Source: an uncultured Rhodothermales bacterium
GTDB lineage: Bacteria; Bacteroidota; Rhodothermia; Rhodothermales; JABDKH01
DNA length: 64,000 bases
NCBI GenBank assembly: GCA_965367755.1
Contig: CBDUKH010000001.1
Location: forward strand, 1-64,000
Direction: 5' to 3'
The position numbers and the translations under genes were made by a program. The notes beneath the pieces were generated by a model. It was given only the letters and a program-made list of their open reading frames with translations. It made no database searches and had not been told where the DNA came from. Positions 27,399 through 43,672 of the stretch are shown here, piece after piece; position 1 is the stretch's first letter; every line of letters starts with the position of its first letter.

Positions 27399-28223
27399 TT
27401 ATAACCCGACCGTGTATTGGGCTCCGAAGACATTTTCACCACCGGCATCCACGACAATGAGGGCTTCGTACTCTCCTGGGGAAATATCCTGGATGTCAAA
27501 CCAGTAGCTGACTGAAGTACCCGGATATACCCTGGCCGGGTTGGCTTCCCTGCGGGCGGTCTTCTTGCCTGCTTTGTCGAAGAGCTCCACCCAAACTTCA
27601 GGCTTAACGAACATATTACCTGTGTTGTCCACGCTCACTTTGAGGGCTTTTTCTCCAGAGCCAGGATCAGCAATTGCTACGTCGGCGAACGAAATAGAAT
27701 AATCTTCCGATCCGCGAATATGGGTTGCTATCTGTACGCCGTATCGGAATATCTGTATCAGTCCGACCTTGGGCTCGTCGCTGTCGTCGAGGACGGATTC
27801 GGGAGATTCCTCTGGAATCCCCTCGACCATAAGCATACTCCAGTACGTACCGTCTAACGTAGTGTCAGGAATCGTTACTACGTAGCTAACCATTACGGAT
27901 TGGCCGGGCGGCACGATAAATCGTTCTGGGCTGAAGTCGACCCAGGCTGCGTTGGACCGAACTTCGGTACCTGGAGGACTGAATCGGTTCGTACCGTCAT
28001 GAAAAAACATGTAGTCCGATTTATAAACTTTAGCCTCGCGATCAACCGGCGAGCCATTGTGAACCTCGATCTCACCTTTGATCACTTTTCCTGGACTACC
28101 ATCAATGTCTCGAGCCAGCTCTCCTACGACGGATATCTGGCCGAACACTGATAACGGAACGATCAATGAGCAAACAACTAGAAATACTATTCGGGAGTAA
28201 CGCATTTTTATTGTACTGTCCAT
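27399..28223 (-). CDS. secreted two-domain Ig-like protein (periplasmic chaperone-like candidate)
   Basis: 274 aa with a signal peptide. Two beta-sandwich-like halves. An RFIVPPGQSVMV segment is reminiscent of the PapD-like chaperone N-domain. Its end overlaps the next gene. Confidence 0.5.
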   Translation of the reverse strand: MDSTIKMRYSRIVFLVVCSLIVPLSVFGQISVVGELARDIDGSPGKVIKGEIEVHNGSPVDREAKVYKSDYMFFHDGTNRFSPPGTEVRSNAAWVDFSPERFIVPPGQSVMVSYVVTIPDTTLDGTYWSMLMVEGIPEESPESVLDDSDEPKVGLIQIFRYGVQIATHIRGSEDYSISFADVAIADPGSGEKALKVSVDNTGNMFVKPEVWVELFDKAGKKTARREANPARVYPGTSVSYWFDIQDISPGEYEALIVVDAGGENVFGAQYTVGL

Positions 28224-28684
28224 GTATAGATGACGGTGTGAACATCGTTTCCATTGGCCGAGCTGTTCCCCAGCTCTGCCGGAGCTTCGGCGCGGTATGA
28301 TAGATCAGCACTACCATTCGGTCGAAGTAATCTGCTTATACCGATAACAAAATCCTGGGGAAGCATCCCTTCGGTAAGCTGTACTTCCGGTGCCGCAAAC
28401 CCACCTCGAATATTCGTCGCCTGGACGTACAACTCGAACGATTGACTGATCACTTGCGACGAGACGATAATTTTCGTTTGTAAAAACGGGAGTTGATTCC
28501 ACCTCAATCGCGTACGGGAGTCGAAGGCCGGCTCAGGGTCGAGCCCAGCAGCAAGGGGTGCCCCTATAGTCAGCGTAACGTTCCCGCCATTCATGCGCAG
28601 TCTCTGGGAATACGAAGTATCCGGATTCGTCAAAAAGACGAACCCGGCAATTATTCCGGAAATAATGAAGGGTCCAATTCGCAT
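28208..28684 (-). CDS. small secreted subunit-like protein
   Basis: 158 aa with a signal peptide. It has an NGGNVTLTIGAP motif that parallels GDVTITVGAP in the 174-aa paralog, and a C-terminal strand VIYTWTVQ. Confidence 0.55.
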   Translation of the reverse strand: MRIGPFIISGIIAGFVFLTNPDTSYSQRLRMNGGNVTLTIGAPLAAGLDPEPAFDSRTRLRWNQLPFLQTKIIVSSQVISQSFELYVQATNIRGGFAAPEVQLTEGMLPQDFVIGISRLLRPNGSADLSYRAEAPAELGNSSANGNDVHTVIYTWTVQ

Positions 28685-28823
28685 AGTAGACGGGAGGAGA
28701 GCGAACTGCTAGTTTCGTCCCAAACAGATACGTCTTAAGACATTTGTCTCAAAAAGAGAAAAGGACCTGCGAACAAATTCACAGATCCTTTCCTCGAGCC
28801 TTACAGGAGTTCTACGCCAACTT

Positions 28824-29303
28824 TTAGCTGGTTAGCGTATACGTTACTGCTCTTGTTTCTCCTGCTCCGTTAGCCGCAGCAGCTGCTGTTGCCGAAGCTA
28901 CATAATTAATCGTTCCTGTTGAAGAAACGGCACTTATGCCGGTGAGGAGGTCAACTGCTGTGGTCGACAATGCAGTCGAACCAGCGGCTGTTCCACCACC
29001 GATAGAAGAAAGAGAACTTGAGAGGGTAAGTCCGGCTGAATAATCAGCGCTCAGTTGAGCAGTGATTTTCTGGCCAGCTTCGTTCGTAGTAACGGAATAG
29101 GATCCCGACGCGGTTCCGTCTGTCGGGTCGCTACCTGCGCTGCCAGGTGCGCCAACTGTAATCGTGACATCACCGCTAACCGAAATCAAATTGAAAGTCG
29201 GGACGATAATTGTAACGTTATGGCTGGCTGTCACTTGAGCAGAAGAGACGTGCGCGAAGCCGAAGAACACAACGGCAATCGCCAGTATTTTTAGATACTG
29301 CAT
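28824..29303 (-). CDS. small secreted Ser/Thr/Gly/Ala-rich subunit-like protein (first gene of the operon)
   Basis: The start at 29303 has a perfect AAGGAGG 5 nt upstream. Signal peptide, then SSAQVTASHNVTIIVPTF. C-terminal AVTYTLTS. Confidence 0.65.
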   Translation of the reverse strand: MQYLKILAIAVVFFGFAHVSSAQVTASHNVTIIVPTFNLISVSGDVTITVGAPGSAGSDPTDGTASGSYSVTTNEAGQKITAQLSADYSAGLTLSSSLSSIGGGTAAGSTALSTTAVDLLTGISAVSSTGTINYVASATAAAAANGAGETRAVTYTLTS

Positions 29304-29470
29304 TTTTCCTCCTTTAGAAAGTTGGTTACGTTTTTTGATGTGCGGCAAATTTCGTGGTTGTTCGCACTCGGGAGGAGATTGATAACCTAGTCACACTTCA
29401 AATCCGCTATCGGACAGGAATTCTGTTGCTTAAGGACAGCATTCGAAAATCGCTGTAAAGAAAGTGAGAA

Positions 29471-30055
29471 TCACGCAGCAAGGATCATTTCTGACGCCAT
29501 AGGAGATAATGCATGGACAGCCGTTCGTCTGCTAACATCCAGATTGTATCTAACAACAGCGGGATATATCACAGAGATTCTGTCGGATAGTGCACCTGCC
29601 ATCGCAGCTCGAACTTCCTTTGAGGCGCGTGCCTTCAATACGTTCGCTGCTGACCTAACAAACAATGACGGATTGGCAATCGAAAGCAGATAAGCGAAAT
29701 CATCCAGGTGGAAGAACAAACTGGACGCCGGAACGGCTAGAATGTCTGTCACGAGGCCCATTGGATACTTGGGATCCCAATCGCGAAATTGGCGGCTGTC
29801 CGTTTCAGACAGTATTATCGCGACCGTCTCGTATTCACTTACAAGAAGGACGTCAGCATAAATATCGAATTGCTGCCCGGGAACAGAAATACCCTCAACA
29901 GCCATTACACTGTCCTTTAAGAATGGCGCCAACACTTCCAGAAGTGTCTTCGTAGCAGGGTTGTTCGAGGCAGAAATGCCAACCGCTGTTTTATTAGGAG
30001 CCGTGTTGAGTACTTTATTCATGTGACGTGCCCGATTATTTGTTATCGATACCAC
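29471..30055 (-). CDS. hypothetical cytoplasmic protein
   Basis: 194-aa ORF with no signal peptide and no confident family assignment. Confidence 0.4.
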   Translation of the reverse strand: MVSITNNRARHMNKVLNTAPNKTAVGISASNNPATKTLLEVLAPFLKDSVMAVEGISVPGQQFDIYADVLLVSEYETVAIILSETDSRQFRDWDPKYPMGLVTDILAVPASSLFFHLDDFAYLLSIANPSLFVRSAANVLKARASKEVRAAMAGALSDRISVIYPAVVRYNLDVSRRTAVHALSPMASEMILAA

Positions 30056-30195: not shown

Positions 30196-33144
30196 GTGTA
30201 CGAACATCCACGTAAATATTGCCAGACGTTTCCTACACTCCTCGCTTTATTGATGGTCTCGTTGCTCGTCACCACCGATAGCAATGGCCAAGGATTTAGC
30301 AGTCTCAACGGCAGGAACCATCCTGAGCTAAAATGGCAGGTCGTCGAAACCGCCCACTTTGAGATAATTTATCCAGAGCACCTCGCCGGTCTCGAAAATG
30401 AAGTCGCTGCAATAGCCGAGGAGTCGTACTCTGCGCTGTCAGCAAACCTGAACGTTTCCTTCGACAAGAAAATCCGCATCTACCTGTCAGATGAAGACGA
30501 GATTGCTAACGGCTTCGCGATGTCTGTCGGCACTGGTCACACCAACATCTGGGTACATGTCAACGATGTCGCCGAGTACTGGACCGGTAGCGATAAGTGG
30601 ATACGTAAAGTGGTTGCTCATGAGCTTGCCCACATCTTTCACTATCAGGCCGTTCGATCTCCCCTTCGACCCCTCGACAGAATCCTCGGAAACCCGTTGC
30701 CCCGCTTCTGGACTGAAGGGCTCGCTCAGTATCAAACCGAAACGTGGGATGCATTTCGTGGAGAACAATGGCTACGCACAGCTGTGCTCGACGATCGCCT
30801 CTCCTATTCAGATGGCCTGTCTCGCTGGAACGGAAATCTGTTATACTCAATCGGTAATTCGCAAGTACGTTACTTTGCTGAACAGTATGGAGATTCTACT
30901 CTTGCCAACCTTCTGACAATTCGCAAACGGACAGCATTCGGCATACTGCGGACACACGATTTCTTCTATGCTTTCAAAAAATCGACAGGAAAATCGTACA
31001 GCCAGTTCCGAGAAGAGTGGCGGCGACACATCAATATCCAGTACAACGCTCTCGCTGCAACAATGGAATTAAGCGACTCGCTTGGAACCAATCCGCTGGC
31101 AATTCCGGGGCAGTATATAGATGACGTCCGCACGGATAGATCCAGTGGCAGACTCTATTCCGTTTCGCTTCAATCCATCAGTCGTCCGGTAACCCGCATT
31201 ACCAGTTTCGAGACTGATACTGGGAATGCCGAGGTCCTAACCGACGGCGCCATCGGGTCGCAGATTTCTGCAGTCGGAAATCTGGTTGCATTCACTCGCC
31301 GCTCCCGGGGTGAAGCAGGATCCATCGTGTACGACCTGTACCTGCACGATATTGACAGTGGAAAGTCGCAGAGAATAACGTCTAATCGACGCGCGTCGTA
31401 TCCAGATCTCTCTCCTGATGCGACAAAAGTTGCGTACGCCGTTTCGTCTGGCGGCACTACCAATATTTTCGAGATGGACCTCGGCACCCGGGCAGAGCGA
31501 CAGTTGACGTTTTTCACTGGTGATGTCCAGATCGCGCGACTCAGATGGCGACCTGACGGAAATGCTATTGCCTTTTCAGCTTTTGACGCCGACGGCACGC
31601 GAAACATAAAAGTTCTCTCACTCCCCGACCGTGATGTAAACGAATGGACGGATGGTTCGCACGACGATCGGGGGCCAGTCTGGTCGCCTTCAGGTCGGGA
31701 GCTTGCATATACATCTCTAAGAGACGGAGTCCCGAATGTATTTATAACGGATGGAACAGGGTCTTCGAGACGCATCACAAACGTGGTCACTGGAGCATCA
31801 GTCGTTGACTGGATTGGACAGAGCCTGTCGGATTCACTGGCAGCAAACAGGTTAATTGTGATAACGATGCAGTCGAAGTCATCCGATGCTGTCTTCGCAA
31901 TAGACCCGGCAAGGGTACCATTCTCTGCTGAAAGCACTCCTCGCACTGACTTATGGGCGTGGACAACTCACCGACCTCCAACTGTTGTTCCTTCGCAGAT
32001 TGATGAAAGTCCTGTCGTTGTCGAAAACCGTAGACCGTATAGTTCTCTTGCAAATATGACGCACACGTTAAGCGTCGCCTCCCCATACTATACCAATGGA
32101 AACGATTGGGGACTGATGGGATTGACGACGTGGATGGAGCCGCTTGGGAAACATCTTTTACTTGCATCGGGTGGTGTCTCGATCCCGTCTCCTGGTGCAT
32201 CATCATTTGTTTCACTGGCATATGTGAACCGCCAGTTTACTCCGACAATCCAGGTGAGCCTGTTCCACATCCCAACAGCCGTTCGTCCTTACGGAGACAC
32301 GGTCATCGAGGAACGTTCCAGCGGTGGTTCCCTGACAGCTTTCTGGCCGCTGGACAGATACTCGCGGCCGTATACATCTACGACATCATTTGCCCGACTT
32401 CGAACAATGTTTGTAGAACCTACCAATCCGGAATCCATACCCGTGTTCGAAAACCTTCCCGCACCGGAAGATGGATCCCAAACAGATCTGAGGGTCGGAG
32501 TCTTGCGCAGAAAGCAGAAGCCCTATCGTCACAACGTGGTGCATCCGTTGGACGGATTCGGAATCCGACTTCGAGCAACCGTAGGAATACGCAATGACGA
32601 GATTGACCGGCCGTTCGTCATCGGCGACCTCGCTGCTTACAAGATCTTTCCGGCGCCTGCGATGACGAGGTTTTTCGTTTACGGACGGATTCAAGGTCAG
32701 CAGGGTCGTTCACTGGCGCAGAATTACATCGGCCTCTCCAGGTACGATGAAATCAGGATCTCGTCGCCGGGCATTTTTGAATTAACTTTTTCGGATGTCG
32801 ATCGTGTACGTGGCTATCGTGCGTTTGCTGTCGGCAATCGACTCGCTTTCGGTTCGATTGAATACCGAATTCCTGTAGCTCCCTCGTTGGAAACTAGAAT
32901 CCTGGGTGTAATTTCTCTGGGTAAGACCACTGCCTCATTGTTTGCTGATGGAGCATTCGTATTAACTGACGCCGAATTCGACAAGGCCGTCAAGCGACTT
33001 GGGTTGGGTATCGAATTGAAGAACGCCATCGCGATCGGCGGACTCACCCTGATGCATGCATTCGGCGCGTCGCAGCCTGAACACGAGTTGTTCACCTCGG
33101 ATGTCAGCTATTATTATCGCATTCGAACAGCCATCCCATTCTAG
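30196..33144 (+). CDS. outer-membrane protein with N-terminal HExxH metallopeptidase-like domain, TolB-like PD40 beta-propeller repeats and C-terminal beta-barrel (paralog of 56767..59844)
   Basis: Signal peptide. HELAHIFHYQ...WTEGLAQY (gluzincin-like HExxH plus a downstream Glu). Repeated SPDG/DG-containing propeller blades. A C-terminal region rich in amphipathic strands that ends in a Phe. Confidence 0.65.
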   Translation: MYEHPRKYCQTFPTLLALLMVSLLVTTDSNGQGFSSLNGRNHPELKWQVVETAHFEIIYPEHLAGLENEVAAIAEESYSALSANLNVSFDKKIRIYLSDEDEIANGFAMSVGTGHTNIWVHVNDVAEYWTGSDKWIRKVVAHELAHIFHYQAVRSPLRPLDRILGNPLPRFWTEGLAQYQTETWDAFRGEQWLRTAVLDDRLSYSDGLSRWNGNLLYSIGNSQVRYFAEQYGDSTLANLLTIRKRTAFGILRTHDFFYAFKKSTGKSYSQFREEWRRHINIQYNALAATMELSDSLGTNPLAIPGQYIDDVRTDRSSGRLYSVSLQSISRPVTRITSFETDTGNAEVLTDGAIGSQISAVGNLVAFTRRSRGEAGSIVYDLYLHDIDSGKSQRITSNRRASYPDLSPDATKVAYAVSSGGTTNIFEMDLGTRAERQLTFFTGDVQIARLRWRPDGNAIAFSAFDADGTRNIKVLSLPDRDVNEWTDGSHDDRGPVWSPSGRELAYTSLRDGVPNVFITDGTGSSRRITNVVTGASVVDWIGQSLSDSLAANRLIVITMQSKSSDAVFAIDPARVPFSAESTPRTDLWAWTTHRPPTVVPSQIDESPVVVENRRPYSSLANMTHTLSVASPYYTNGNDWGLMGLTTWMEPLGKHLLLASGGVSIPSPGASSFVSLAYVNRQFTPTIQVSLFHIPTAVRPYGDTVIEERSSGGSLTAFWPLDRYSRPYTSTTSFARLRTMFVEPTNPESIPVFENLPAPEDGSQTDLRVGVLRRKQKPYRHNVVHPLDGFGIRLRATVGIRNDEIDRPFVIGDLAAYKIFPAPAMTRFFVYGRIQGQQGRSLAQNYIGLSRYDEIRISSPGIFELTFSDVDRVRGYRAFAVGNRLAFGSIEYRIPVAPSLETRILGVISLGKTTASLFADGAFVLTDAEFDKAVKRLGLGIELKNAIAIGGLTLMHAFGASQPEHELFTSDVSYYYRIRTAIPF

Positions 33145-33247: not shown

Positions 33248-34525
33248 ATGACATCAATAACCAGCATTCTGGAAATGCGCTTCAGGAGTCGGCAGATGGT
33301 TCTGACCAAACCAGTCTTACTCGCAGCATGTCTGATAGCAGTTTTGTGCGGAGCCTGCCGCGACGGTAGTTCTCCAGAGATTGAGCAGCAGGCCCAACTA
33401 CCGGATTCGACATCAGTCGAATTGACGACTGGCATTGATTCAACAGTCCTCGCGCGACGAGACACGATTATCGTCGTAGACACGCTGTATGTGGATACTC
33501 TCTTTGTTCAGACACCAGCACCACCCGCAACGGTCCGTACGGACACCACTGAGACTGAAGCAAGATTTGATGCCATTGAAGAGCGCCTGGACCGAATTGC
33601 CACCTCAATTGCAGCCTTATCGACGGAACAACCACAAGAAGCCAGAAGCGACACGATATCAACGGCGTCCCCACGCGAGACCTTGGAATCCGCTGCCGAC
33701 AACTTGAGTAATTTCGGACTCAAGTTTTTCGTCTCACTCATGTTTCTCTTCTTCACCTACTTTGTGATACGCATCGTAGTGTGGATTCTCGACACCGCAT
33801 CTGAACGAAGTGCGAGCCGACGGCTCTTCTTCAAGAAGCTCATACCTATCGTTCGCATCGTTGCATGGTCATTCATTATCTATCTGATAATCGCGAAAGT
33901 CTTCAACGTGGACAGCCAGGGATTACTTGCAGCCGGAGCTGCTCTGGGTGTTGCTGTTGGTTTTGCTGCGCAGGACGTCCTCAAAAATATCTTTGGCGGG
34001 ATTCTGATTATACTGGATCAACCATTTCAGGTGGGTGACAAGATTAGCGTTGCCGGCACCTATGGCGAGGTTGTTTCGATTGGTTTACGATCGACACGAA
34101 TTGTCACACCTGACGACAACCTGGTTTCAGTTCCCAATACTCAGGTTGTGGATGGCCAGGTCGCGAATGCAAACGCCGGTGCATTGCACTGTCAGGTTGT
34201 TACTACGTTGTTCTTACCGGGTGACGTCGACGTTGCCCGTGCTAAGAAGATTGCTTATGAAGCGGCAGCAAACTCCAAGTACGTTTATCTGGACATGCCA
34301 ATTGTCGTCCTCGTGAAAGATCACTTCGAGTATCGTTTTCTGACGAAGATTGTAGTCAAGGCGTACGTCCTTGATACTCGATATGAGTTTGTTTTCGCAA
34401 GCGAAATTACGGAGACGGCCAAGCTGGAGTATTTACGACAGGGCCTTATGGATGCGTACGACGACGGCACCGTTTATGACGAACGTTCGGGCCGTACTAT
34501 CAATGGTTCACCATCTGAAAATTGA
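33248..34525 (+). CDS. MscS-family mechanosensitive channel with an N-terminal periplasmic extension
   Basis: MscS core (LKNIFGGILIILDQPFQVGDKISVAGTYGEVVSIGLRSTRIVTPDDNLVSVPN). N-terminal signal or lipoprotein-like segment and a coiled region. Confidence 0.85.
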   Translation: MTSITSILEMRFRSRQMVLTKPVLLAACLIAVLCGACRDGSSPEIEQQAQLPDSTSVELTTGIDSTVLARRDTIIVVDTLYVDTLFVQTPAPPATVRTDTTETEARFDAIEERLDRIATSIAALSTEQPQEARSDTISTASPRETLESAADNLSNFGLKFFVSLMFLFFTYFVIRIVVWILDTASERSASRRLFFKKLIPIVRIVAWSFIIYLIIAKVFNVDSQGLLAAGAALGVAVGFAAQDVLKNIFGGILIILDQPFQVGDKISVAGTYGEVVSIGLRSTRIVTPDDNLVSVPNTQVVDGQVANANAGALHCQVVTTLFLPGDVDVARAKKIAYEAAANSKYVYLDMPIVVLVKDHFEYRFLTKIVVKAYVLDTRYEFVFASEITETAKLEYLRQGLMDAYDDGTVYDERSGRTINGSPSEN

Positions 34526-37500
34526 TGCAAGTTACCAATCACGAAAGCGACTCACTCGTCACTAATGGCATCGCCAGGAGTGACGACTCGACACGTCCGA
34601 GCGAACTTGCGGGCGTGTATGATCGGGTATTCGACTTCGCGTCAACACAGCACGAAGAATTCGTGTCGGCGGTATCAGATCGTGTCCTGCTCCCGATGAT
34701 GTCTCTTGCGAAACGCCTTGCTGACGCCCATCGTAAAATTCTGGCCGGGTTGCAGGAGAACGGTGATCAAGAGGACTACTGGCAATTTCAAAGGCAGTAC
34801 CGTGAACGCGTTGAGTCTGCCATTATTGAACCGCTCCAACAATACTTGCAGACAGAGCAGCCTGCACAAACTATCAACGAACTATATTTTTCGCTGTTAC
34901 CAACGCTTGAATCCATTGCTCGAGATGTACCCGCTTCGATCCGAATCAGTGAGCCACCGGATTTATTCGAACCGGACAATACGGACTCTACGGGGATTGC
35001 ATTTCGAAAGATGGGAGTCCGAGTCTCGAGAGGCGTAAAATCCGCCGCTGACAAGGTCACATCCATGTTCGGAGATCGTGCTAAACCTGAACGCATGATT
35101 GACGTGCCAGTTGGCGACATCGTGACGTATCATGTTCGACGGAGGTTACCGGCAGCCGCATCCACCACATTTAAAGCGCTCCACAATCAGCTAGCCGAAC
35201 GCACCGCGATTTTCGAAGCTGGAGTTTCCGACTGGTTTGCCGGCGTTCTAAGGGCGGATCGTGAGCTGGATAGACATACTGTTGAGAGTGAGCCAGAAAT
35301 AGTTGAGAGTGAAGATGCTGCAGTAGAAGAAGTACACGAAATAAATACACTGTTCGCGGGAGTTATAGAAGCCGGTACTCGACTCCAGACCGCTCTAGAA
35401 ACCGCAGCTCAGCAGTTGTACGAGATCGACGCTAAAGCAGAAAAGGATTGGGCATTTGCGTGGCGCATGTTTGAGCTAGACCTTGATGGTTGTGGAGCTC
35501 TGGTGTCGTCCACACCTGTACCTATCTCAGAACTCGGCCCCGCCAATATTGTGGGAGGGGCAGCCGATACTGCTATCGAATGGACACAGTGGCACGAACA
35601 GGTTGTGGATCGGCTCACCATGGTGAATGCCCTGATCGACATCCGTGATGAGATGTTATCTCTTGAGGAGGACCTGAAGGCTACCATCAAACAGTCGACG
35701 ACCGTTCCGTTCAAGAAAGCTTTTCAGAAATTGTCTACTGACCTCGAGACGGCATTTCGAACAGCGAAGGCAGCCAGTGAAAATATCTCGTCAAAAACTG
35801 ACCTGAAGGAGTTCGCAAAGACGCTCATAGAATTACGTAAAACGCTGCTGAAGCGGACTAAGTGGCTATCTACAATGCCAGGCTTTATTGCGACGGACGG
35901 TATTCTTGATAATCCGGGCGATGCGGAGTGGAAGAAGCTGTTAGAGATAGCAGACCAGTTGCCGGAGGCCCTGCAAATCCACCCCGTACCAAGGCCGCAT
36001 GCTGTTGATTCGCGAGCCGGAATTCGGACCGTTAAAATGCGGGAGACTGTGAAGCAAACGCTGCACATGAATCTCGCGACACGACTTGAAGACAAGGCTC
36101 TTCCGCTAAAACGCGAATTGGTTAAAGCCTGGAGTTCTACAGAGACCATCGACAACATCATTACCTTCAATATCGATGCTGCTCTGGAAGAAATTGAAAA
36201 CTTCCTGTCGCCCCCGCCTCCTTCAGATGATGAGACTGAACTTCAGGTAGATCCTCCCACGCTGAAAAGTGTTCGAGACACAAGTTTCGAGCTTGCTGGC
36301 GAGGCGCTCCAGCGCGCTGACGACAGCATTGAGGAGATGGTGAAACATCTTGAGGCTCACGTTGCCGAGGTATCAGACGAAATAAACTTCGTGTTCCTTG
36401 ACGATTGGACAGCGATCCATAAGACTGTAAGGACACGTGATGACGCATCCGACCAGTGGGCTGAGGTTTTCTCGCGTGCAGGCCAGCGATGGGAAGCTCT
36501 GCGCTTTGCAGGTGAGAAGTGGTTTGATAAAGCTACAGCCGCAGTTAAACAGTGGGTCCGCGTCGGTGAGCGAAGCGCTCGCGGCCTGATTCGCAAGGGA
36601 CAGACTGCAGTCGGGGTTATCGACCAGAGCGACACCCTGCGATCGGAAACGGTAAACAAAATAGCCAGCGTTGCGTCGTTTAAGAAGACACTGCCCGTGG
36701 TGTATCGCAGATTGTTTTCGTTCGAGCCGCTGACAGGAGCAAGTCTGGCTGAGGCGCGCTCCAGGGACCTGGTATGGATCCGGTCGTTTGCAACCGGGTG
36801 GAAGGAGCGACGCAATGGTGGTGTTGCTGTGATTGCGGGCGACCCTGGCTCAGGAAAAACAAGCTTCCTCAACATTCTTGGCGAGTCTTCACTCAAGGGT
36901 TTCGAAACTATCCTCATCCGAATATCGGACCGCCCTAATTCTGAAAAGGAACTGGTCGCGGTGTTGGCCGAGCATATGGGAATCACCACTTCCGTTGATG
37001 ACCTCATGGGCCTTGAAGAGATTCTCAACCACAACACCGATCGTCGATGTGTGCTGATTGATGATATCGAACATCTCTTCTTGCAGGCCACCGGTGGCAA
37101 AGAGTTGCTGGAGCGATTTATGCTTTTTCTGTCCCGGACGGACAAATGGATCTGCTGGTTTCTGACAATTAACAAGCCAGCGTGGAAATATTTGGCGCGG
37201 ACTGCCCAACGCATCGTGGGCTTTGTTGTATCGTACGAGCTTTCAACAGTAGATCGATCCGGCTACGAAGCTATCGTCCTGAATCGCCATCGTCGAAGTG
37301 GGATGCCGATTGTTTTTGAACAGCCAAAAGATGGCGCGAACTACCTGAAAGACAAGGTTGGCCGGAAGAGGACGGAGTCTGAGATTCAGGATACGCTGAG
37401 GGAGAATTATTTCGACACGCTGCGGAAGCTGAGTGGTCAGAATATCATGCTGGCACTTTATTACTGGACGTTGTCTGCACAGTTTAAAGAGAGTGGCGAG

Positions 37501-37827
37501 TTATTGGTCAAACCGATAAAGCCCTTGTCATTTGATTTTCTTGGCAGATATGACACGGGGCTTGCTTTTTCATTGCGGTCGATCATTATGCACAAGACGC
37601 TAAGTGTCGAAGAGCACAACCGGGTATTCAGCTTTTCAAAAGACGAGACGACGTTTGTCCTTGAGCGACTCGTGAATGATCGTTTGATTTGCCTGGTTGA
37701 TTCGAACCCGGACACGATGGGCGTCGAACAGCCGGACTGGTATAGTGGGGATGTTCGATTCGAGATCCATCCGCTTGTCCAATTTCCTGTCAGCGAGATG
37801 CTATCCCGTAATAACTTGTTGCATTAG
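34522..37827 (+). CDS. large (1101 aa) P-loop NTPase, STAND/AAA-like, with a ~750-aa helical N-terminal region; translationally coupled to the MscS gene
   Basis: ATGA start/stop overlap with the MscS gene. Walker A GDPGSGKTS, Walker B-like VLIDDIEH, and a sensor-like WFLTINKP. Confidence 0.6.
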   Translation: MMQVTNHESDSLVTNGIARSDDSTRPSELAGVYDRVFDFASTQHEEFVSAVSDRVLLPMMSLAKRLADAHRKILAGLQENGDQEDYWQFQRQYRERVESAIIEPLQQYLQTEQPAQTINELYFSLLPTLESIARDVPASIRISEPPDLFEPDNTDSTGIAFRKMGVRVSRGVKSAADKVTSMFGDRAKPERMIDVPVGDIVTYHVRRRLPAAASTTFKALHNQLAERTAIFEAGVSDWFAGVLRADRELDRHTVESEPEIVESEDAAVEEVHEINTLFAGVIEAGTRLQTALETAAQQLYEIDAKAEKDWAFAWRMFELDLDGCGALVSSTPVPISELGPANIVGGAADTAIEWTQWHEQVVDRLTMVNALIDIRDEMLSLEEDLKATIKQSTTVPFKKAFQKLSTDLETAFRTAKAASENISSKTDLKEFAKTLIELRKTLLKRTKWLSTMPGFIATDGILDNPGDAEWKKLLEIADQLPEALQIHPVPRPHAVDSRAGIRTVKMRETVKQTLHMNLATRLEDKALPLKRELVKAWSSTETIDNIITFNIDAALEEIENFLSPPPPSDDETELQVDPPTLKSVRDTSFELAGEALQRADDSIEEMVKHLEAHVAEVSDEINFVFLDDWTAIHKTVRTRDDASDQWAEVFSRAGQRWEALRFAGEKWFDKATAAVKQWVRVGERSARGLIRKGQTAVGVIDQSDTLRSETVNKIASVASFKKTLPVVYRRLFSFEPLTGASLAEARSRDLVWIRSFATGWKERRNGGVAVIAGDPGSGKTSFLNILGESSLKGFETILIRISDRPNSEKELVAVLAEHMGITTSVDDLMGLEEILNHNTDRRCVLIDDIEHLFLQATGGKELLERFMLFLSRTDKWICWFLTINKPAWKYLARTAQRIVGFVVSYELSTVDRSGYEAIVLNRHRRSGMPIVFEQPKDGANYLKDKVGRKRTESEIQDTLRENYFDTLRKLSGQNIMLALYYWTLSAQFKESGELLVKPIKPLSFDFLGRYDTGLAFSLRSIIMHKTLSVEEHNRVFSFSKDETTFVLERLVNDRLICLVDSNPDTMGVEQPDWYSGDVRFEIHPLVQFPVSEMLSRNNLLH

Positions 37828-37853
37828 GTGAGGGATGAGGGATGAGGGATGAG
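37828..37853 (+). repeat. tandem heptamer repeat (GGGATGA) x3.5 immediately after the stop codon
   Basis: GTGAGGGATGAGGGATGAGGGATGAG read directly from the sequence. Confidence 0.8.
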
Positions 37854-37875: not shown

Positions 37876-37914
37876 AAAAAGGGTCCCCGAATAAAATTCG
37901 GTGACCCTTTTTTC
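37876..37914. terminator. bidirectional rho-independent terminator between convergent genes
   Basis: AAAAAGGGTCCCCGAAT-AAA-ATTCGGTGACCCTTTTTT: a 12-bp stem with one mismatch, flanked by an A-run on one side and a T-run on the other. Confidence 0.75.
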
Positions 37915-37955: not shown

Positions 37956-38795
37956 TCAACCGATATGCATCTGTAATTCTTCGCGACGATGTTTTTGACG
38001 AAGCTTGCGTAATGCTTTCTCCTTGATCTGGCGCACGCGTTCGCGGGTCAACCCGAAGCGCTGTCCGATTTCTTCAAGTGTCAGCGGATGCTCCCTGCCG
38101 ATCCCGAAATAAAGTCGGGTAATTTCCGCCTCGCGCGGGTGAAGGAGGCTAAGCGCCCTTTCGATATCAATCTTCAGAGACTCATCCATCAGAGTATCAT
38201 CTGGAGAAAGATCTTCGTCGTTAGGCAGAACGTCGAGCAATGAGTTATCGTCGTCCTCATTAAACGGCGCGTCCATCGAGAGATGACGACCCGTGTGCTG
38301 CATTGCTTCGCGCACCTTGTCGACATCTACCTCGAGTTCTTTTGCAAGCTCCTCAATGTTAGGCTGGCGCTCGTGTACCTGTGCTAGCTTTGCACTCGTT
38401 TTCCGGATCTTGGAGATCGTGCCGATACGATTGAGCGGCAGACGCACAACGCGACTCTGTTCGGCTAGCGCCTGAAGAATCGCCTGGCGAATCCACCAGA
38501 CTGCGTACGAAATAAATTTAAAGCCGCGCGTTTCATCAAATCGTTGCGCAGCCTTAATCAGGCCATAGTTGCCCTCATTAATCAAGTCGGCCAGCGTCAA
38601 ACCTTGACCCTGATACTTTTTGGCAACGGACACGACAAAGCGCAGGTTTGCGCGAGTCAGACGGTGCAACGCTTCCTGATCATTCTGCTTGATTCTTCTC
38701 GCGAGATCAACTTCTTCGGCGGGAGTAAGCAATGGAATCTGACCAATCTCCTGAAGATATTGGTCCAGCATGCGTTGCTGTCGTGGGACGTACAT
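37956..38795 (-). CDS. rpoD: RNA polymerase primary sigma factor, short FCB-group type (regions 1.2-4, no region 1.1)
   Basis: 279 aa with a region 2 [19 protein letters not shown]...[12 protein letters not shown] block and region 4 [28 protein letters not shown]. Confidence 0.85.
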
Positions 38796-41587: not shown

Positions 41588-42394
41588 GTGCCGTTGACGC
41601 TGTTTCAGTGGGTAATACCGATTCGATTAATAGATATCGTGGAGATATTGATCTTCGCGTATATCCTGTACAAGCTGTACGTGCTGATGCGAGGCACTAT
41701 TGCAGTACAGATTTTCATCGGCGTGATGGCTCTTTTCCTTGTCCAGTTTATTGTGACGATTCTGGATATGAGAATGCTCGGGTCGCTCTTCGCACTACTC
41801 AGCGAAGTATTTGTGCTTGCCGTCATCATCCTTTTCCAACCCGAGATACGCAGGTTATTGCTCGCGCTTGGACAGAATCCGCTGGTTCGGCGGTTCGTGA
41901 AATTACCAGAACACGAGCAGGTCATTACAGAAGTTGTCGAGGCGGTGTCTCATCTGAGCAGACAACGAATCGGTGGCCTGATTGCCTTTGAGCGATCGAC
42001 TGGACTTCGCAGTTATACGGAAACCGGAACGCTGTTGCAGGCCAGAGTGACCCATGACCTGTTGATTACAATATTCTATTCTCAGAATCCATTGCATGAT
42101 GGTGCCGTCATTATCCGCAACAGGAGGATCGAGGCTGCCCGCTGCATCCTACCGGTGTCGTCAAGTATGAAGCTAAGCCCACACCTGGGCCTTCGGCATA
42201 GGGCGGCGGTCGGCTTAAGCGAACTTACTGACGCATTCGTCATCGTTGTTTCGGAAGAAACGGGCCGTATTTCTTTTGCAACCGATGGCAATCTTGAAAC
42301 GGATGTTTCGATCGACGAGCTTCATGGGTATCTTGGACGTATCCTCCTGCAACAGGCGTCGGAATCCACTGAGCTGGCTGTTGCCGAAGTCTAG
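41588..42394 (+). CDS. cdaA: diadenylate cyclase CdaA (DAC domain, membrane-anchored)
   Basis: Three N-terminal transmembrane helices. DAC motifs DGAVII and RHRAAVGLSE...VVSEETG. Confidence 0.85.
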   Translation: MPLTLFQWVIPIRLIDIVEILIFAYILYKLYVLMRGTIAVQIFIGVMALFLVQFIVTILDMRMLGSLFALLSEVFVLAVIILFQPEIRRLLLALGQNPLVRRFVKLPEHEQVITEVVEAVSHLSRQRIGGLIAFERSTGLRSYTETGTLLQARVTHDLLITIFYSQNPLHDGAVIIRNRRIEAARCILPVSSSMKLSPHLGLRHRAAVGLSELTDAFVIVVSEETGRISFATDGNLETDVSIDELHGYLGRILLQQASESTELAVAEV

Positions 42395-43080: not shown

Positions 43081-43379
43081 CTCTCGACTTGTTTATTGGA
43101 TGACCAGTGCCAGGCTTCGTGGTCGACAGACTCTACGATCCCAACGATTGTCGCATCTGTTGGTGTAAGACCTGGTTTGAACGGGATCGCTGCTTCAGCT
43201 GAGGTTGCGTAGAGAACCATGTCTCCCTGACCGGCATCGACGGTATCCAGAGCTATTATTGGCATTCCCCGCACGTGGCCGCTGAAAGTTAACGGCTGTA
43301 CCATCAGAAGGCGCTTACTTTCCAGGGCAGGATGTTTTTGTGTCGCCCAGATATTCCCGACTACTTTGGCAAGTTTCAT
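43077..43379 (-). CDS. EutN/CcmL/PduN-family bacterial microcompartment vertex (BMC-P) protein
   Basis: 100 aa. MKLAKVVGNIWATQK... aligns with the EutN/PduN N-terminus and central ALDTVDAGQGDMVLYATSAEA block. Confidence 0.65.
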   Translation of the reverse strand: MKLAKVVGNIWATQKHPALESKRLLMVQPLTFSGHVRGMPIIALDTVDAGQGDMVLYATSAEAAIPFKPGLTPTDATIVGIVESVDHEAWHWSSNKQVES

Positions 43380-43672
43380 GCGACATCCGCCATCATTTCC
43401 TCAAACTGGGAGATGTCCAGCTTGTCAACGATTGCTGTTATCACGGCATCCACGGGCTTCTTGTCCGTGAGCTCCGTCTGCCGCGCACTTGAACCCTGTG
43501 CGACGAGCACAACCTCTCCGACTCCAGCACCGACGCTGTCGACGGCGACTACAAACTTGTCTTTAAGACTATAGTCGAGCTCCACCTCTTGCACAATCTG
43601 GAACTTCATTCCGACAAGCTGGGCATCCTTGCGTGTAGCCCAAACCGTCCCGACGACTTTTCCTAATATCAT
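43376..43672 (-). CDS. EutN/CcmL/PduN-family bacterial microcompartment vertex (BMC-P) protein
   Basis: 98 aa. MILGKVVGTVWATRK...VVAVDSVGAGVGEVVLVAQGSSARQ closely parallels PduN/EutN. It shares 4 bp with its tandem partner. Confidence 0.75.
   Translation of the reverse strand: MILGKVVGTVWATRKDAQLVGMKFQIVQEVELDYSLKDKFVVAVDSVGAGVGEVVLVAQGSSARQTELTDKKPVDAVITAIVDKLDISQFEEMMADVA

What the first reader, a model, noticed from the sequence alone, without database searches (positions are those of the whole stretch)
33248..37827. MscS-family channel translationally coupled to a 1101-aa STAND/AAA-like P-loop NTPase
The MscS gene stop and the start of the 1101-aa ORF overlap in ATGA (34522..34525), which implies co-translation.

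The large protein has a ~750-aa helical N-terminal region with no domains I recognised. That is followed by a P-loop NTPase core (Walker A GDPGSGKTS, Walker B VLIDDIEH, sensor-like WFLTIN) and a ~200-aa C-terminal region, ending at a strong bidirectional terminator.

A membrane pore paired with a large signal-transducing NTPase is the logic of several abortive-infection and stress-response modules. I do not know of a described MscS-NTPase system. The MscS here also carries an unusual N-terminal periplasmic extension.
Basis: partly seen in the sequence, partly recalled or inferred. Interest (0 to 1): 0.7.

Follow-up and report, generated by a model that had tools for sequence, protein, structure and literature searches.

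The report
MscS channel with dedicated AAA+ partner
A mechanosensitive-type membrane channel gene is tightly joined to the gene for a 1,100-residue ATP-binding protein. The same two-gene unit recurs in about a hundred distantly related bacterial genomes. It therefore looks like an undescribed channel-plus-regulator module, more likely involved in ion balance than in phage defence.

Summary
The stop TGA is at 34523-25 and the ATG at 34525-27, so they share one base.

- **The two genes.** Gene 1 is a genuine MscS-family channel with a probable lipoprotein signal peptide and a periplasmic linker. Gene 2 has about 720 N-terminal helical residues, which are an internal duplication of a ~300-residue module. 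These are followed by an ORC/Cdc6-like AAA+ core, a lid and a winged helix.
- **The family.** It is large, with 1,140 clusters at E<=1e-30. It has no specific Pfam, NCBIfam or PADLOC model, and I found no literature on it.
- **The pairing.** In 103 of 104 informative loci, a specific MscS subfamily lies directly beside the NTPase. These loci come from Rhodothermales, Salinivenus, Gemmatimonadota, a gammaproteobacterial MAG, Novosphingobium and many metagenomes. The channel is upstream in the window's clade and downstream in the other clade. No third gene is conserved.
- **Link to ion transport.** One relative fuses the whole NTPase module to a cation-chloride cotransporter. That transporter is also the commonest neighbour.
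- **Against defence.** There are no phage or viral copies and no neighbouring defence genes. Synteny next to a sigma-70 factor gene indicates vertical inheritance.
- **Likely mode of action.** The Walker A lysine is arginine in most members, which suggests a nucleotide switch rather than a motor.

Best reading: a nucleotide-dependent cytoplasmic partner or regulator of an MscS-like channel. The function is inferred, not shown.

The parts
33248..34525 (+). MscS-family channel gene (425 aa), a member of a specific NTPase-partnered subfamily
   Evidence: Pfam MS_channel_2nd 5.9e-20. It is 42% identical to the partner MscS of a 27%-identical NTPase, but only 24% identical to a generic MscS in that same locus. 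Partner copies score 160-660 bits on the subfamily HMM, against 25-127 bits for other MscS paralogues.
33248..33358 (+). Probable lipoprotein-type signal peptide ending in the conserved Ala-Cys (Cys37)
   Evidence: The alignment of orthologues shows an invariant A-C after a hydrophobic stretch (GAC/IAC/TAC/GAC). The lipobox is non-canonical at position -3. Inferred, not tested.
33359..33718 (+). Periplasmic low-complexity / coiled linker (res 38-157)
   Evidence: It is poorly conserved and S/T/D/P-rich, with a short conserved RLDxxExRLDRI stretch. Most partner MscS proteins have an analogous extension behind a signal peptide; the deepest clade lacks it.
33719..34021 (+). TM1 (158-181), cytoplasmic TM1-TM2 loop with the subfamily motif R-R-L-F-F-K-K-L-I-P (182-203), TM2 (204-219) and pore helix TM3 (226-258)
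   Evidence: The subfamily consensus over 96 sequences keeps Rl..Krl.Pi.Ri and G.AvGfAaQD.LKNiFGG. The register against E. coli MscS TM3 is taken from memory; on that register Val and Phe occupy the L105/L109 gate positions.
34022..34447 (+). Cytoplasmic beta-domain and alpha/beta domain of the channel, very strongly conserved in the subfamily
   Evidence: Consensus at >=80% includes PFQvGDKI, YGEV..IGLRstRiVTPDD, CQVV and KAYVlD.RyEf. Pfam MS_channel_3rd was not detected.
34522..34527 (+). Gene junction TTGATG: stop TGA 34523-25, ATG 34525-27 (1-nt overlap), alternative TTG 34522
   Evidence: Equivalent overlaps are found in 25/35 loci of this clade.
34525..37827 (+). 1100-aa partner NTPase gene
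   Evidence: The family has 3,261 representatives at E<=1e-3 and 1,140 at E<=1e-30, and most of the best hits are 1000-1140 aa and match nearly the whole profile.
34594..35529 (+). Helical module A (res 24-335): long helical hairpins plus two short strands. It contains the conserved D154...K162...R166 basic helix
   Evidence: AF2 model pLDDT 86. Invariant columns. hhalign of A against B gives 96.8% probability, E 3e-10, 258 columns.
35530..36624 (+). Helical module B (res 336-700), a duplicate of module A
   Evidence: There is no specific PDB relative; only designed bundles and apolipoprotein-like helices match weakly.
36691..36717 (+). Family signature LPVVYRRLF (res 723-731) just before the AAA+ core
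   Evidence: P724 and Y727 are 100% conserved, L730 98% and F731 99%, across 152 family members.
36757..37239 (+). AAA+ base domain (res 745-905). Walker A is at 36838-36864, Walker B at 37048-37074, and the sensor-1 strand at 37150-37173
37240..37824 (+). Lid (906-1000, with the near-invariant R921-H922-x-x-S925-G926) and a C-terminal winged-helix-like domain (1001-1100, near-invariant H1023, terminal ...NLLH)
   Evidence: Conservation data. Secondary structure is H-H-H-strand-strand. Foldseek alignments span whole Cdc6 chains.
37830..37853 (.). (GAGGGAT)x3 + GAG heptamer repeat directly after the stop codon
   Evidence: Read directly from the sequence. Role unknown.
37876..37912 (.). Bidirectional intrinsic-terminator-like hairpin shared with the convergent sigma-70 gene (37956..38795, -)
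   Evidence: dG -20.7 kcal/mol, z -5.8, 0/200 shuffles as stable, with an A-run 5' and a T-run 3'.

Best explanation
The region is a self-contained two-gene operon. It encodes (i) an MscS-family inner-membrane channel of a distinct subfamily and (ii) its dedicated cytoplasmic partner.

The partner is a ~1,100-residue protein. It has two tandem ~300-residue helical modules followed by an ORC/Cdc6-STAND-like AAA+ nucleotide-binding core, a lid and a winged helix.

I propose that the partner binds the cytoplasmic face of the channel. Candidate contact sites are the conserved basic TM1-TM2 loop and the unusually conserved cytoplasmic cage. Acting as a nucleotide-dependent switch, the partner would set whether the channel opens. 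This would couple ion or osmolyte release to a cytoplasmic signal, as part of ion and osmotic homeostasis.

**Shown:** the domain content of both proteins; the near-universal adjacency and tight or overlapping junctions; co-divergence of the channel subfamily with the NTPase; the absence of any third conserved gene; the fusion and neighbourhood links to cation-chloride cotransporters; and the degenerate Walker A in most members.

**Inferred:** physical contact between the two proteins, the direction of regulation, the nature of the signal and the physiological role.
For: 1. **Adjacency.** After collapsing near-duplicates there are 118 loci, 103 of them informative, and the partner MscS is directly adjacent in 102. 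In the window's clade, 35 of 36 loci have it upstream. In the second clade, 65 have it downstream and 2 upstream. The cultured Novosphingobium pentaromativorans US6-1 also has NTPase then MscS, 2 nt apart.
2. **Junctions.** 25/35 overlap in clade 1. In clade 2, 44 of 61 measured gaps are 0-20 nt and 6 are overlaps.
3. **A specific channel subfamily.** Partner copies score 160-660 bits against 25-127 for other MscS paralogues. A clade-2 partner is 42% identical to the window's channel, while a generic paralogue in the same locus is 24% identical. Many positions in the cytoplasmic domains and the TM1-TM2 loop are >=80% identical across phyla.
4. **No third conserved gene** in 123 loci.
5. **Rosetta-stone fusion.** P0006 (1702 aa) is an SLC12/CCC transporter followed by the helical plus P-loop module, matching family-profile positions 113-184 and 476-1052.
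6. **Ion-transport neighbours.** Prokaryotic CCC transporters are the commonest neighbour, in 10 loci spanning both clades. Extra MscS paralogues lie within 6 kb in 21 loci, and CorA is present in L004.
7. **Switch-like ATP site.** G775, G777 and T779 are near-invariant. The Walker A Lys is Arg in 87/152 members, Lys in 33 and L/H/A/M in about 26. The second acidic residue of Walker B is mostly Asn.
8. **Vertical inheritance.** Orthologous synteny (protease, MscS, NTPase, then sigma-70, GH3, folP and cdaA) holds among Rhodothermales whose NTPases are 48-61% identical.
Against: - There is no direct evidence of a protein-protein contact. No complex model could be computed.
- ORC/Cdc6-type AAA+ domains with a winged helix normally act on DNA, not on channels.
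- One genome (L005) keeps the NTPase in the same syntenic slot with no MscS within 6 kb, so the NTPase may have a channel-independent role.
- The loci were retrieved with clade-specific peptide motifs, and only the top 150 of 3,261 family members were seen. Adjacency in the rest of the family is therefore untested.
- CCC neighbours occur in only ~8% of loci, and only one fusion protein was seen.
- Most loci are from MAGs or metagenomes without phenotype data.
- Homeostasis and stress or defence roles cannot be separated by sequence alone.
Confidence: 0.5

Rival explanations
1. Abortive-infection or anti-phage module. The large NTPase is a STAND-like sensor. On detecting a phage cue it oligomerises and forces the MscS-like pore open, depolarising and killing the cell. 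This is RexAB-like or Avs-with-membrane-effector logic.
For: - The architecture fits: a large sensor-like region, a switch NTPase and a separately encoded membrane pore.
- There are weak sub-threshold hits to nSTAND3 (17.4 vs cut-off 27.2), DS8_antiphage (19.8 vs 790), and mad8, PtuA and AriA P-loops.
- STAND-like features are present: Walker B DDxE in the window, and a near-invariant His (H1023) in the winged-helix region.
- It is a two-gene module set in varied contexts.
Against: - No PADLOC model matches either protein beyond the P-loop.
- No homologue was found in the phage records or in IMG/VR. Only one was found among 72,556 plasmids, on a non-mobilizable 757-kb replicon.
- Neighbours are ion transporters and housekeeping genes, with no defence genes in the top clusters.
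- Synteny beside a sigma-70 gene is stable across 48-61% identical orthologues.
- The putative sensor region is alignable, with near-invariant residues, across the whole family. This is unlike the hypervariable sensors typical of defence STANDs (general knowledge).
- Fusion to a CCC transporter makes little sense for a suicide effector.
Confidence: 0.15
2. The NTPase is a structural or assembly factor rather than a gate regulator. It could be a scaffold that clusters or positions the channel, or an assembly chaperone for the heptamer in the manner of ExeA. It could also be a tether that links the membrane channel to DNA or another cytoplasmic structure through its ORC-like winged helix.
For: - AAA_22 is the family of ExeA/GspA, TniB and MuB (Pfam hit; family membership from general knowledge).
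- The best structural matches are DNA-loading AAA+ proteins with winged-helix domains.
- About 700 residues of long helical bundles look like a scaffold.
- Weak apolipoprotein-like matches hint at amphipathic, possibly membrane-active helices.
- The degenerate ATP site is compatible with a mostly structural role.
Against: - There is no evidence for DNA binding.
- Other MscS channels assemble without helpers (established knowledge).
- The link to a second, unrelated transporter class (CCC), by fusion and by neighbourhood, argues for a generic regulatory module acting on ion transport rather than an MscS-specific assembly factor.
- The strictly conserved P-loop glycines, Thr and R921/H922 suggest that nucleotide binding matters.
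Confidence: 0.2
3. Co-transcribed but mechanistically independent. The NTPase does something unrelated, and the channel is simply a conserved operon neighbour.
For: L005 keeps the NTPase without the channel. No interaction has been shown.
Against: - Adjacency survives an inversion of gene order and divergence down to ~22-27% identity across at least four phyla, while every other neighbour changes.
- The channel subfamily co-diverges with the NTPase.
- Overlapping stop and start codons are widespread.
Confidence: 0.08

Closest known systems
MscS-family mechanosensitive channels (E. coli MscS, MscK, MscM, YbiO, YnaI; Pfam PF00924)
   Same: The pore helix TM3 (GfAaQD..KNiFGG) and the beta-domain match PF00924. 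There are three TM helices before the cytoplasmic domains. A hydrophobic constriction is retained. An N-terminal periplasmic extension behind a signal peptide also occurs in the larger E. coli paralogues (general knowledge).
   Different: This is a distinct subfamily with very high cross-phylum conservation of the cytoplasmic domains, and a conserved basic R-x-R-F-F-F-K motif in the TM1-TM2 loop. It has a probable lipoprotein or type-I signal peptide plus a low-complexity linker. It is always encoded next to a ~1,100-aa AAA+ protein, which has not been described for any characterised MscS, as far as my searches and knowledge go.
ORC/Cdc6 initiator-clade AAA+ ATPases and relatives (Orc1/Cdc6, archaeal Arch_ATPase such as PABY2304/SSO1545, MuB, TnsC/TniB; Pfam AAA_22, AAA_16)
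   Different: About 720 additional N-terminal helical residues (a duplicated module) have no counterpart. The Walker A Lys is mostly Arg in the family. There is no replication or transposition context. The partner is a membrane channel.
STAND NTPases (Apaf-1/NB-ARC, NACHT, bacterial Avs, nSTAND families)
   Same: Shared features are an NBD, helical domain and winged-helix core; a Walker B hhhhDDxE in the window; a near-invariant His in the winged-helix region, reminiscent of the MHD histidine (position only); a large non-catalytic region; and a likely switch rather than motor behaviour.
Cytoplasmic nucleotide-binding regulators of ion transport (RCK/KTN rings TrkA/KtrA on TrkH/KtrB; KefF/KefG on KefC/KefB)
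   Same: The proposed logic is the same: a separately encoded, operon-linked cytoplasmic nucleotide-binding protein sits under a membrane ion pathway and sets its activity. There is also an association with K+/Cl- type homeostasis genes.
   Different: There is no homology: no RCK/TrkA_N or flavodoxin-like domains were detected. The fold is AAA+ rather than Rossmann RCK, the protein is far larger, and the interaction is unproven.
Two-gene abortive-infection systems with a channel effector (lambda RexA/RexB) and the BREX P-loop protein BrxC
   Different: There is no sequence relationship beyond the P-loop fold. The domain order is opposite to BrxC. There are no BREX or other defence neighbours and no phage or prophage context.

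Membership tests
MscS family (PF00924) | Pore-lining TM3 followed by the beta-domain (MS_channel_2nd) | tested here: met
   PF00924 5.9e-20, 71.6 bits against cut-off 20.2, res 243-309. MS_channel_1st (TM2/3) scores 21.2 bits, just under its cut-off of 23.1.
MscS family (PF00924) | C-terminal alpha/beta cytoplasmic domain (MS_channel_3rd) | tested here: inconclusive
   The Pfam model was not detected in the window protein. However, a conserved ~90-residue region follows the beta-domain and aligns with a paralogue that does match MS_channel_3rd.
MscS family (PF00924) | Heptameric, tension-gated channel activity | not testable with these tools
   Needs electrophysiology or osmotic-downshock assays and a structure.
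AAA_22 / AAA+ superfamily | Walker A, Walker B and a sensor-1 strand in an AAA+ alpha/beta base followed by a helical lid | tested here: met
ORC/Cdc6 initiator clade | Best fold similarity to Orc1/Cdc6, including the lid and a C-terminal winged helix, plus an extra helix between beta2 and beta3 (initiator-specific motif) | tested here: met
ORC/Cdc6 initiator clade | Origin/DNA binding and a replication-initiation context | tested here: not met
   The context is a membrane channel gene in 103/104 loci, and no replication gene is among the recurrent neighbour families. DNA binding itself cannot be tested here.
STAND NTPases | Match to a STAND family model (NB-ARC, NACHT, nSTAND, AAA_16) | tested here: not met
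   nSTAND3 scores 17.4 bits against cut-off 27.2. AAA_16 scores 20-29 bits against cut-off 32.6 in relatives.
STAND NTPases | NBD, helical domain and winged-helix core, with Walker B hhhhD[DG] and a conserved winged-helix His contacting ADP | tested here: inconclusive
   The window has VLIDDIEH, but the family consensus is [ED][ND]. H1023 is 99% conserved in the winged-helix region. Its contact with nucleotide could not be checked because no model coordinates were available.
STAND NTPases | C-terminal repeat sensor (TPR/WD40/LRR) and an N-terminal effector domain | tested here: not met
   The protein ends with the winged helix. The only large extra region is the N-terminal duplicated helical module, and no repeat families were detected.
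Known anti-phage defence systems (PADLOC-DB 2.0) | Significant match of either protein to a defence-system model, with other system components nearby | tested here: not met
   The MscS has no hit. The NTPase and three relatives hit only at E 4e-4 to 3e-2 over ~30-45 P-loop residues. The neighbours have no hits.
RCK/KTN or KefF-type channel regulators | TrkA_N/RCK or flavodoxin-like fold | tested here: not met
   No such Pfam hits. The resemblance is functional analogy only.

The most novel reading that the evidence does not exclude
This would be a new class of bacterial channel complex. An ORC/Cdc6-STAND-like AAA+ switch protein oligomerises on the cytoplasmic cage of a heptameric MscS-like channel, perhaps with matching seven-fold symmetry as seen for TnsC or Apaf-1 rings. 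It would gate the channel in response to nucleotide state or a cytoplasmic cue sensed by its duplicated helical modules. The same module would also plug into cation-chloride cotransporters. It would then be a general, previously unrecognised regulator of ion efflux, widespread in Rhodothermota, Bacteroidota, Gemmatimonadota and Proteobacteria.
Probability: 0.3. Interest if true: 0.9.

Novelty: new variant of a known kind. Interest (0 to 1): 0.74.

Why it matters
- **A new kind of control for MscS channels.** These channels are textbook emergency valves, thought to be gated by membrane tension alone or by fused sensor domains. A dedicated, co-evolving 1,100-residue AAA+ partner would add nucleotide- or signal-dependent control.
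- **An unusual role for an AAA+ protein.** As far as I know and could find, an ORC/Cdc6-like ATPase working with an ion channel would be a first.
- **A function for a large orphan family.** More than 1,100 sequence clusters are currently annotated only as 'AAA family ATPase' or 'hypothetical protein'. The family also contains a new duplicated helical domain.
- **A possible link between two transport systems.** The MscS-like channels and the poorly understood prokaryotic cation-chloride cotransporters may share a regulator.
- **It can be tested.** The pair exists in a cultured strain, Novosphingobium pentaromativorans US6-1, and standard E. coli channel-less strains are available.

Tried and rejected
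- **Word-indexed homology search.** It found only 6 proteins even with a 62-sequence profile. The exhaustive HMMER scan was needed to reveal the family.
- **The search for related loci with the diverse alignment A4.** It failed because no stretch was conserved enough. Clade-specific alignments A5 and A6 worked, but they bias the sample towards two motifs.
- **First AF2 model.** With 6 sequences it was poor (pLDDT 64). It was used only for a first Foldseek search and was superseded by the 62-sequence model (pLDDT 86).
- **Unavailable resources.** The afdb50 fold library was not available. The BFVD viral library gave only generic AAA+ hits.
- **Look-up of P0001's contig.** It returned nothing, so the source assembly is unnamed. 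A Rhodothermales origin is inferred from relatives.
- **Literature.** Seven full-text searches on MscS with AAA+, STAND, P-loop, defence or abortive infection returned nothing relevant.
- **Rfam.** No RNA family was found in the window, so there is no riboswitch upstream of the operon.
- **Promoter and terminator scan.** It found nothing above shuffle expectation and missed the real hairpin.
- **Rejected: a c-di-AMP or CRISPR-CorA link.** CdaA lies three genes away in the window. DHH/DHHA1 and CorA flank the pair in L004. None of these recurs among the neighbour clusters shared by at least 4 loci, so this stays an unfollowed lead.
- **Rejected: the HSP82 middle-domain hit and the apolipoprotein hits.** Their E-values of ~0.006-0.02 look like compositional matches.

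Full report
**1. What is in the sequence**

The two ORFs exist as described.

Gene 1 (33248..34525, +, 425 aa) matches the MscS beta-domain model PF00924 at 5.9e-20. It matches several NCBIfam MscS/MscK/MscM models well below their equivalog cut-offs. It is therefore an MscS-family member but not an orthologue of a named channel.

Gene 2 (34525..37827, +, 1100 aa from the ATG) carries Walker A GDPGSGKTS, Walker B VLIDDIEH and the strand ICWFLTIN. It passes the Pfam AAA_22 cut-off, at 39 bits against 27.

The junction reads TTGATG. The stop TGA is at 34523-25 and the ATG at 34525-27, so they share one base. A TTG at 34522 would give a 4-nt overlap. The database protein identical to this ORF is 1100 aa long, which matches the ATG start.

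Downstream lie a (GAGGGAT)x3 repeat and a strong hairpin at 37876-37912 (dG -20.7, z -5.8). The hairpin is flanked by A- and T-runs and lies between gene 2 and a convergent sigma-70 gene.

**2. The large protein**

A word-indexed search found only five relatives. An exhaustive HMMER scan with their alignment found 3,261 cluster representatives at E<=1e-3 and 1,140 at E<=1e-30. Most of the best hits are 1000-1140 aa long and match nearly the whole profile. This is a large, unnamed family.

Pfam sees only AAA_22/AAA_16 in its members. NCBIfam and PADLOC give only P-loop-level noise. One member in a RefSeq record is called 'AAA family ATPase'.

With a 62-sequence alignment, AF2 gives a confident model with pLDDT 86 and pTM 0.69:
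- Residues ~24-720 are long helices with four short strands.
- Residues 745-905 form an AAA+ base.
- Residues 906-1000 form a lid.
- Residues 1001-1100 form a helix-helix-helix-strand-strand unit typical of a winged helix.

The N-terminal region has no specific structural relative; only designed bundles and apolipoprotein-like helices match. Profile-profile comparison of residues 24-335 against 336-700 gives 96.8% probability and E 3e-10 over 258 columns, with the short strands in register. The region is therefore a tandem duplication of a ~300-residue module.

Across 152 members the P-loop glycines and Thr are essentially invariant, as are R921, H922, S925, G926, W878, W887, H1023 and the motif LPxVYxRLF. 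The Walker A lysine, however, is Arg in 87 members, Lys in 33 and L/H/A/M in about 26. The second Walker B acidic residue is mostly Asn. The window's clade has the canonical K/DD form. I read this as a nucleotide-binding switch whose hydrolysis is weak or dispensable in much of the family. This is an inference.

**3. The pairing is the real finding**

Close relatives (48-61% identity) show the same locus: protease, MscS, NTPase, then sigma-70, GH3, folP and cdaA on the far side.

A 27%-identical relative in an unrelated context also has an MscS next to it, but downstream. That MscS is 42% identical to the window's channel. A second, generic MscS in the same locus is only 24% identical.

I then fetched three sets of loci:
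- 40 loci from GTDB species genomes: Rhodothermales, Salinivenus, Gemmatimonadota/Longimicrobiales, other Bacteroidota and one gammaproteobacterial MAG.
- 80 loci from metagenomes for the second clade.
- One plasmid hit, on megaplasmid pLA3 of the cultured Novosphingobium pentaromativorans US6-1.

I scanned all six frames with HMMs for the two proteins. After collapsing near-duplicates there are 118 loci, of which 103 are informative because DNA is present on the relevant side. In 102 of these the partner-type MscS lies directly beside the NTPase on the same strand.
- In the window's clade, 35 of 36 loci have it upstream.
- In the second clade, 65 have it downstream and 2 upstream.
- Novosphingobium makes the total 103 of 104, with a 2-nt gap.

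Junctions are tight:
- In clade 1, 25 of 35 overlap (ATGA x14, GTGA x5, TGATG x5, one 8-nt overlap).
- In clade 2, 44 of 61 measured gaps are 0-20 nt and 6 overlap.

Partner channels score 160-660 bits on the subfamily HMM, against 25-127 for other MscS paralogues in the same loci. The HMM included one generic paralogue from L004, which therefore scores high by construction.

The single exception, L005, is an orthologous Rhodothermales locus. Its protease is 48% and its sigma factor 98% identical to the window's, and the channel gene is simply absent.

Clustering all neighbouring ORFs from 123 loci finds no third gene present in more than 10 loci.

**4. The channel subfamily**

Over 96 sequences, the TM1-TM2 cytoplasmic loop keeps a basic R..R-[LF]-F-F-K..L.P..R motif. 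The pore helix and both cytoplasmic domains keep long runs at >=80% identity across phyla. This is unusually strong constraint for MscS paralogues and is consistent with a conserved binding partner. That reading is an inference.

On a register against E. coli MscS taken from memory, hydrophobic residues (Val, Phe) occupy the gate positions. An ordinary MscS-type pore is therefore expected.

Most members start with a signal peptide. It is of the lipobox Ala-Cys type in the window's clade and in many Gemmatimonadota, and of type-I form elsewhere. A 60-130-residue S/T/D/P-rich linker follows. The deepest clade lacks both.

**5. What does the module do?**

Evidence for ion homeostasis:
- P0006 (1702 aa) is an SLC12/CCC cation-chloride cotransporter fused at its cytoplasmic C-terminus to the whole helical plus P-loop module. 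It matches family-profile positions 113-184 and 476-1052.
- Free-standing prokaryotic CCC transporters are the commonest neighbour. They occur in 10 loci spread over both clades, and in L062 one lies directly after the pair.
- 21 loci hold additional MscS paralogues within 6 kb, and L004 has CorA.
- CCC genes are rare in bacteria, so ~8% of loci is a large excess. I have not computed a formal background rate.

Evidence against defence:
- No PADLOC membership.
- No homologue in 50,697 phage records or in IMG/VR.
- One plasmid copy only, on a non-mobilizable 757-kb replicon.
- The neighbours are housekeeping or transport genes.
- The pair is stable and vertically inherited next to a sigma-70 factor gene in Rhodothermales.

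My best model is a channel with a dedicated cytoplasmic nucleotide-switch partner that regulates ion or osmolyte efflux. By analogy it works like the RCK/KTN rings on Trk/Ktr or KefF/KefG on KefC/KefB, but it is not homologous to them.

Rivals:
- An Abi-type sensor plus pore (0.15).
- A scaffold, assembly factor or DNA tether (0.2).
- Mere co-transcription (0.08).

Physical interaction, stoichiometry and the signal are not shown.

**6. Comparison with known systems, and novelty**

The channel is a member of the MscS family. The NTPase is a member of the AAA+ superfamily. It is closest to the ORC/Cdc6 initiator clade by fold and has some STAND-like traits, but it fails STAND model cut-offs and lacks the STAND sensor architecture.

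Neither the NTPase family, its duplicated helical module nor the channel-NTPase pairing appears in Pfam, NCBIfam or PADLOC. Seven full-text literature searches also found nothing.

I classify it as a new variant of a known kind, namely an ion channel with an accessory nucleotide-binding regulator built from parts never seen together. The more radical reading, an AAA+-gated MscS complex that also serves CCC transporters, remains open at roughly 0.3 probability.

**7. Caveats**

- Loci were retrieved with two clade-specific peptide motifs, and only the top 150 family members were visible. The 103/104 figure therefore describes those clades, not necessarily all 3,261 relatives.
- Most sources are MAGs or metagenomes.
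- All structural statements rest on one AF2 model.
- Several motif interpretations rely on recalled knowledge rather than tests made here: the initiator-specific motif, the MHD-like His and the gate residues.

Noticed in passing
window 37830-37853: Three perfect tandem copies of the heptamer GAGGGAT (plus GAG) lie immediately after the NTPase stop codon and before the terminator hairpin. Their purpose is unknown.
   Followed up: no
window 30196-33144 (+): A 982-aa protein with an MA-type metallopeptidase-like N-terminus (HELAH), Tricorn/TolB-type beta-propeller repeats and a C-terminus ending ...YYYRIRTAIPF, which resembles an outer-membrane beta-barrel signature. It precedes the MscS-NTPase pair in all close Rhodothermales relatives (L001-L003, L005).
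   Followed up: partly
L005 2724-10363 (Rhodothermales MAG CBDCYH010000002.1): This is an orthologous locus: the protease is 48% and the sigma-70 98% identical to the window's. The NTPase (1139-aa ORF) is retained but the MscS gene is missing, and no MscS lies within 6 kb. It is the only informative locus out of 104 without the partner.
   Followed up: partly
P0006 (JGI 3300042731, 7.7-kb contig; no DNA held): A 1702-aa protein fuses an SLC12/cation-chloride cotransporter to the complete helical plus P-loop module. A 238-aa gene of unknown function overlaps its stop codon downstream.
   Followed up: partly
L125 3655-7907 (Novosphingobium pentaromativorans US6-1 plasmid pLA3, NZ_CP009292.1 651420-655672): A cultured strain carries a distant version of the pair: WP_007014233.1 'AAA family ATPase' and WP_039857743.1 'mechanosensitive ion channel family protein'. 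This NTPase begins with a signal-peptide or TM-like segment (MVLRLIKLCLIGLFACLVAAPEGAAAQ), unlike the window protein.
   Followed up: partly
window 41588-42394 (+); L004 3-974 and 5134-6192: The c-di-AMP synthase CdaA lies three genes from the pair in the window's synteny block. In L004 a DHH/DHHA1 phosphoesterase directly precedes the NTPase, and CorA plus a second MscS follow the partner channel. This may be a lead to c-di-AMP or osmoregulation, but these genes do not recur across loci.
   Followed up: no
window 34525-37827, residues 778 and 846-849 (family-wide): The Walker A lysine is replaced by arginine in most of the family (87/152) and by Leu, His, Ala or Met in others. The rest of the P-loop stays invariant. 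The window's clade is the minority with a canonical Lys and a DD Walker B.
   Followed up: partly
window 43083-43400 (-): An EutN/CcmL-type microcompartment vertex protein gene (1.8e-25) sits beside pcm and an M19 dipeptidase. The relative L003 has two such genes in tandem. I did not look for shell protein genes.
   Followed up: no
window 27399-30055 (-): Four consecutive small ORFs (274, 158, 174 and 194 aa) have no Pfam or PADLOC match. They lie downstream of a 1076-aa CarboxypepD_reg/LysM protein, and the arrangement is conserved in L001 and L002.
   Followed up: no
L072 9150-10507, L055 3656-5439, L091 13188-14099, L122 886-2708: A RimK-type ATP-grasp gene paired with a PF05618 'Zn_protease' gene recurs next to the NTPase-MscS module in four metagenomic loci. 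RimK alone is found in six.
   Followed up: no
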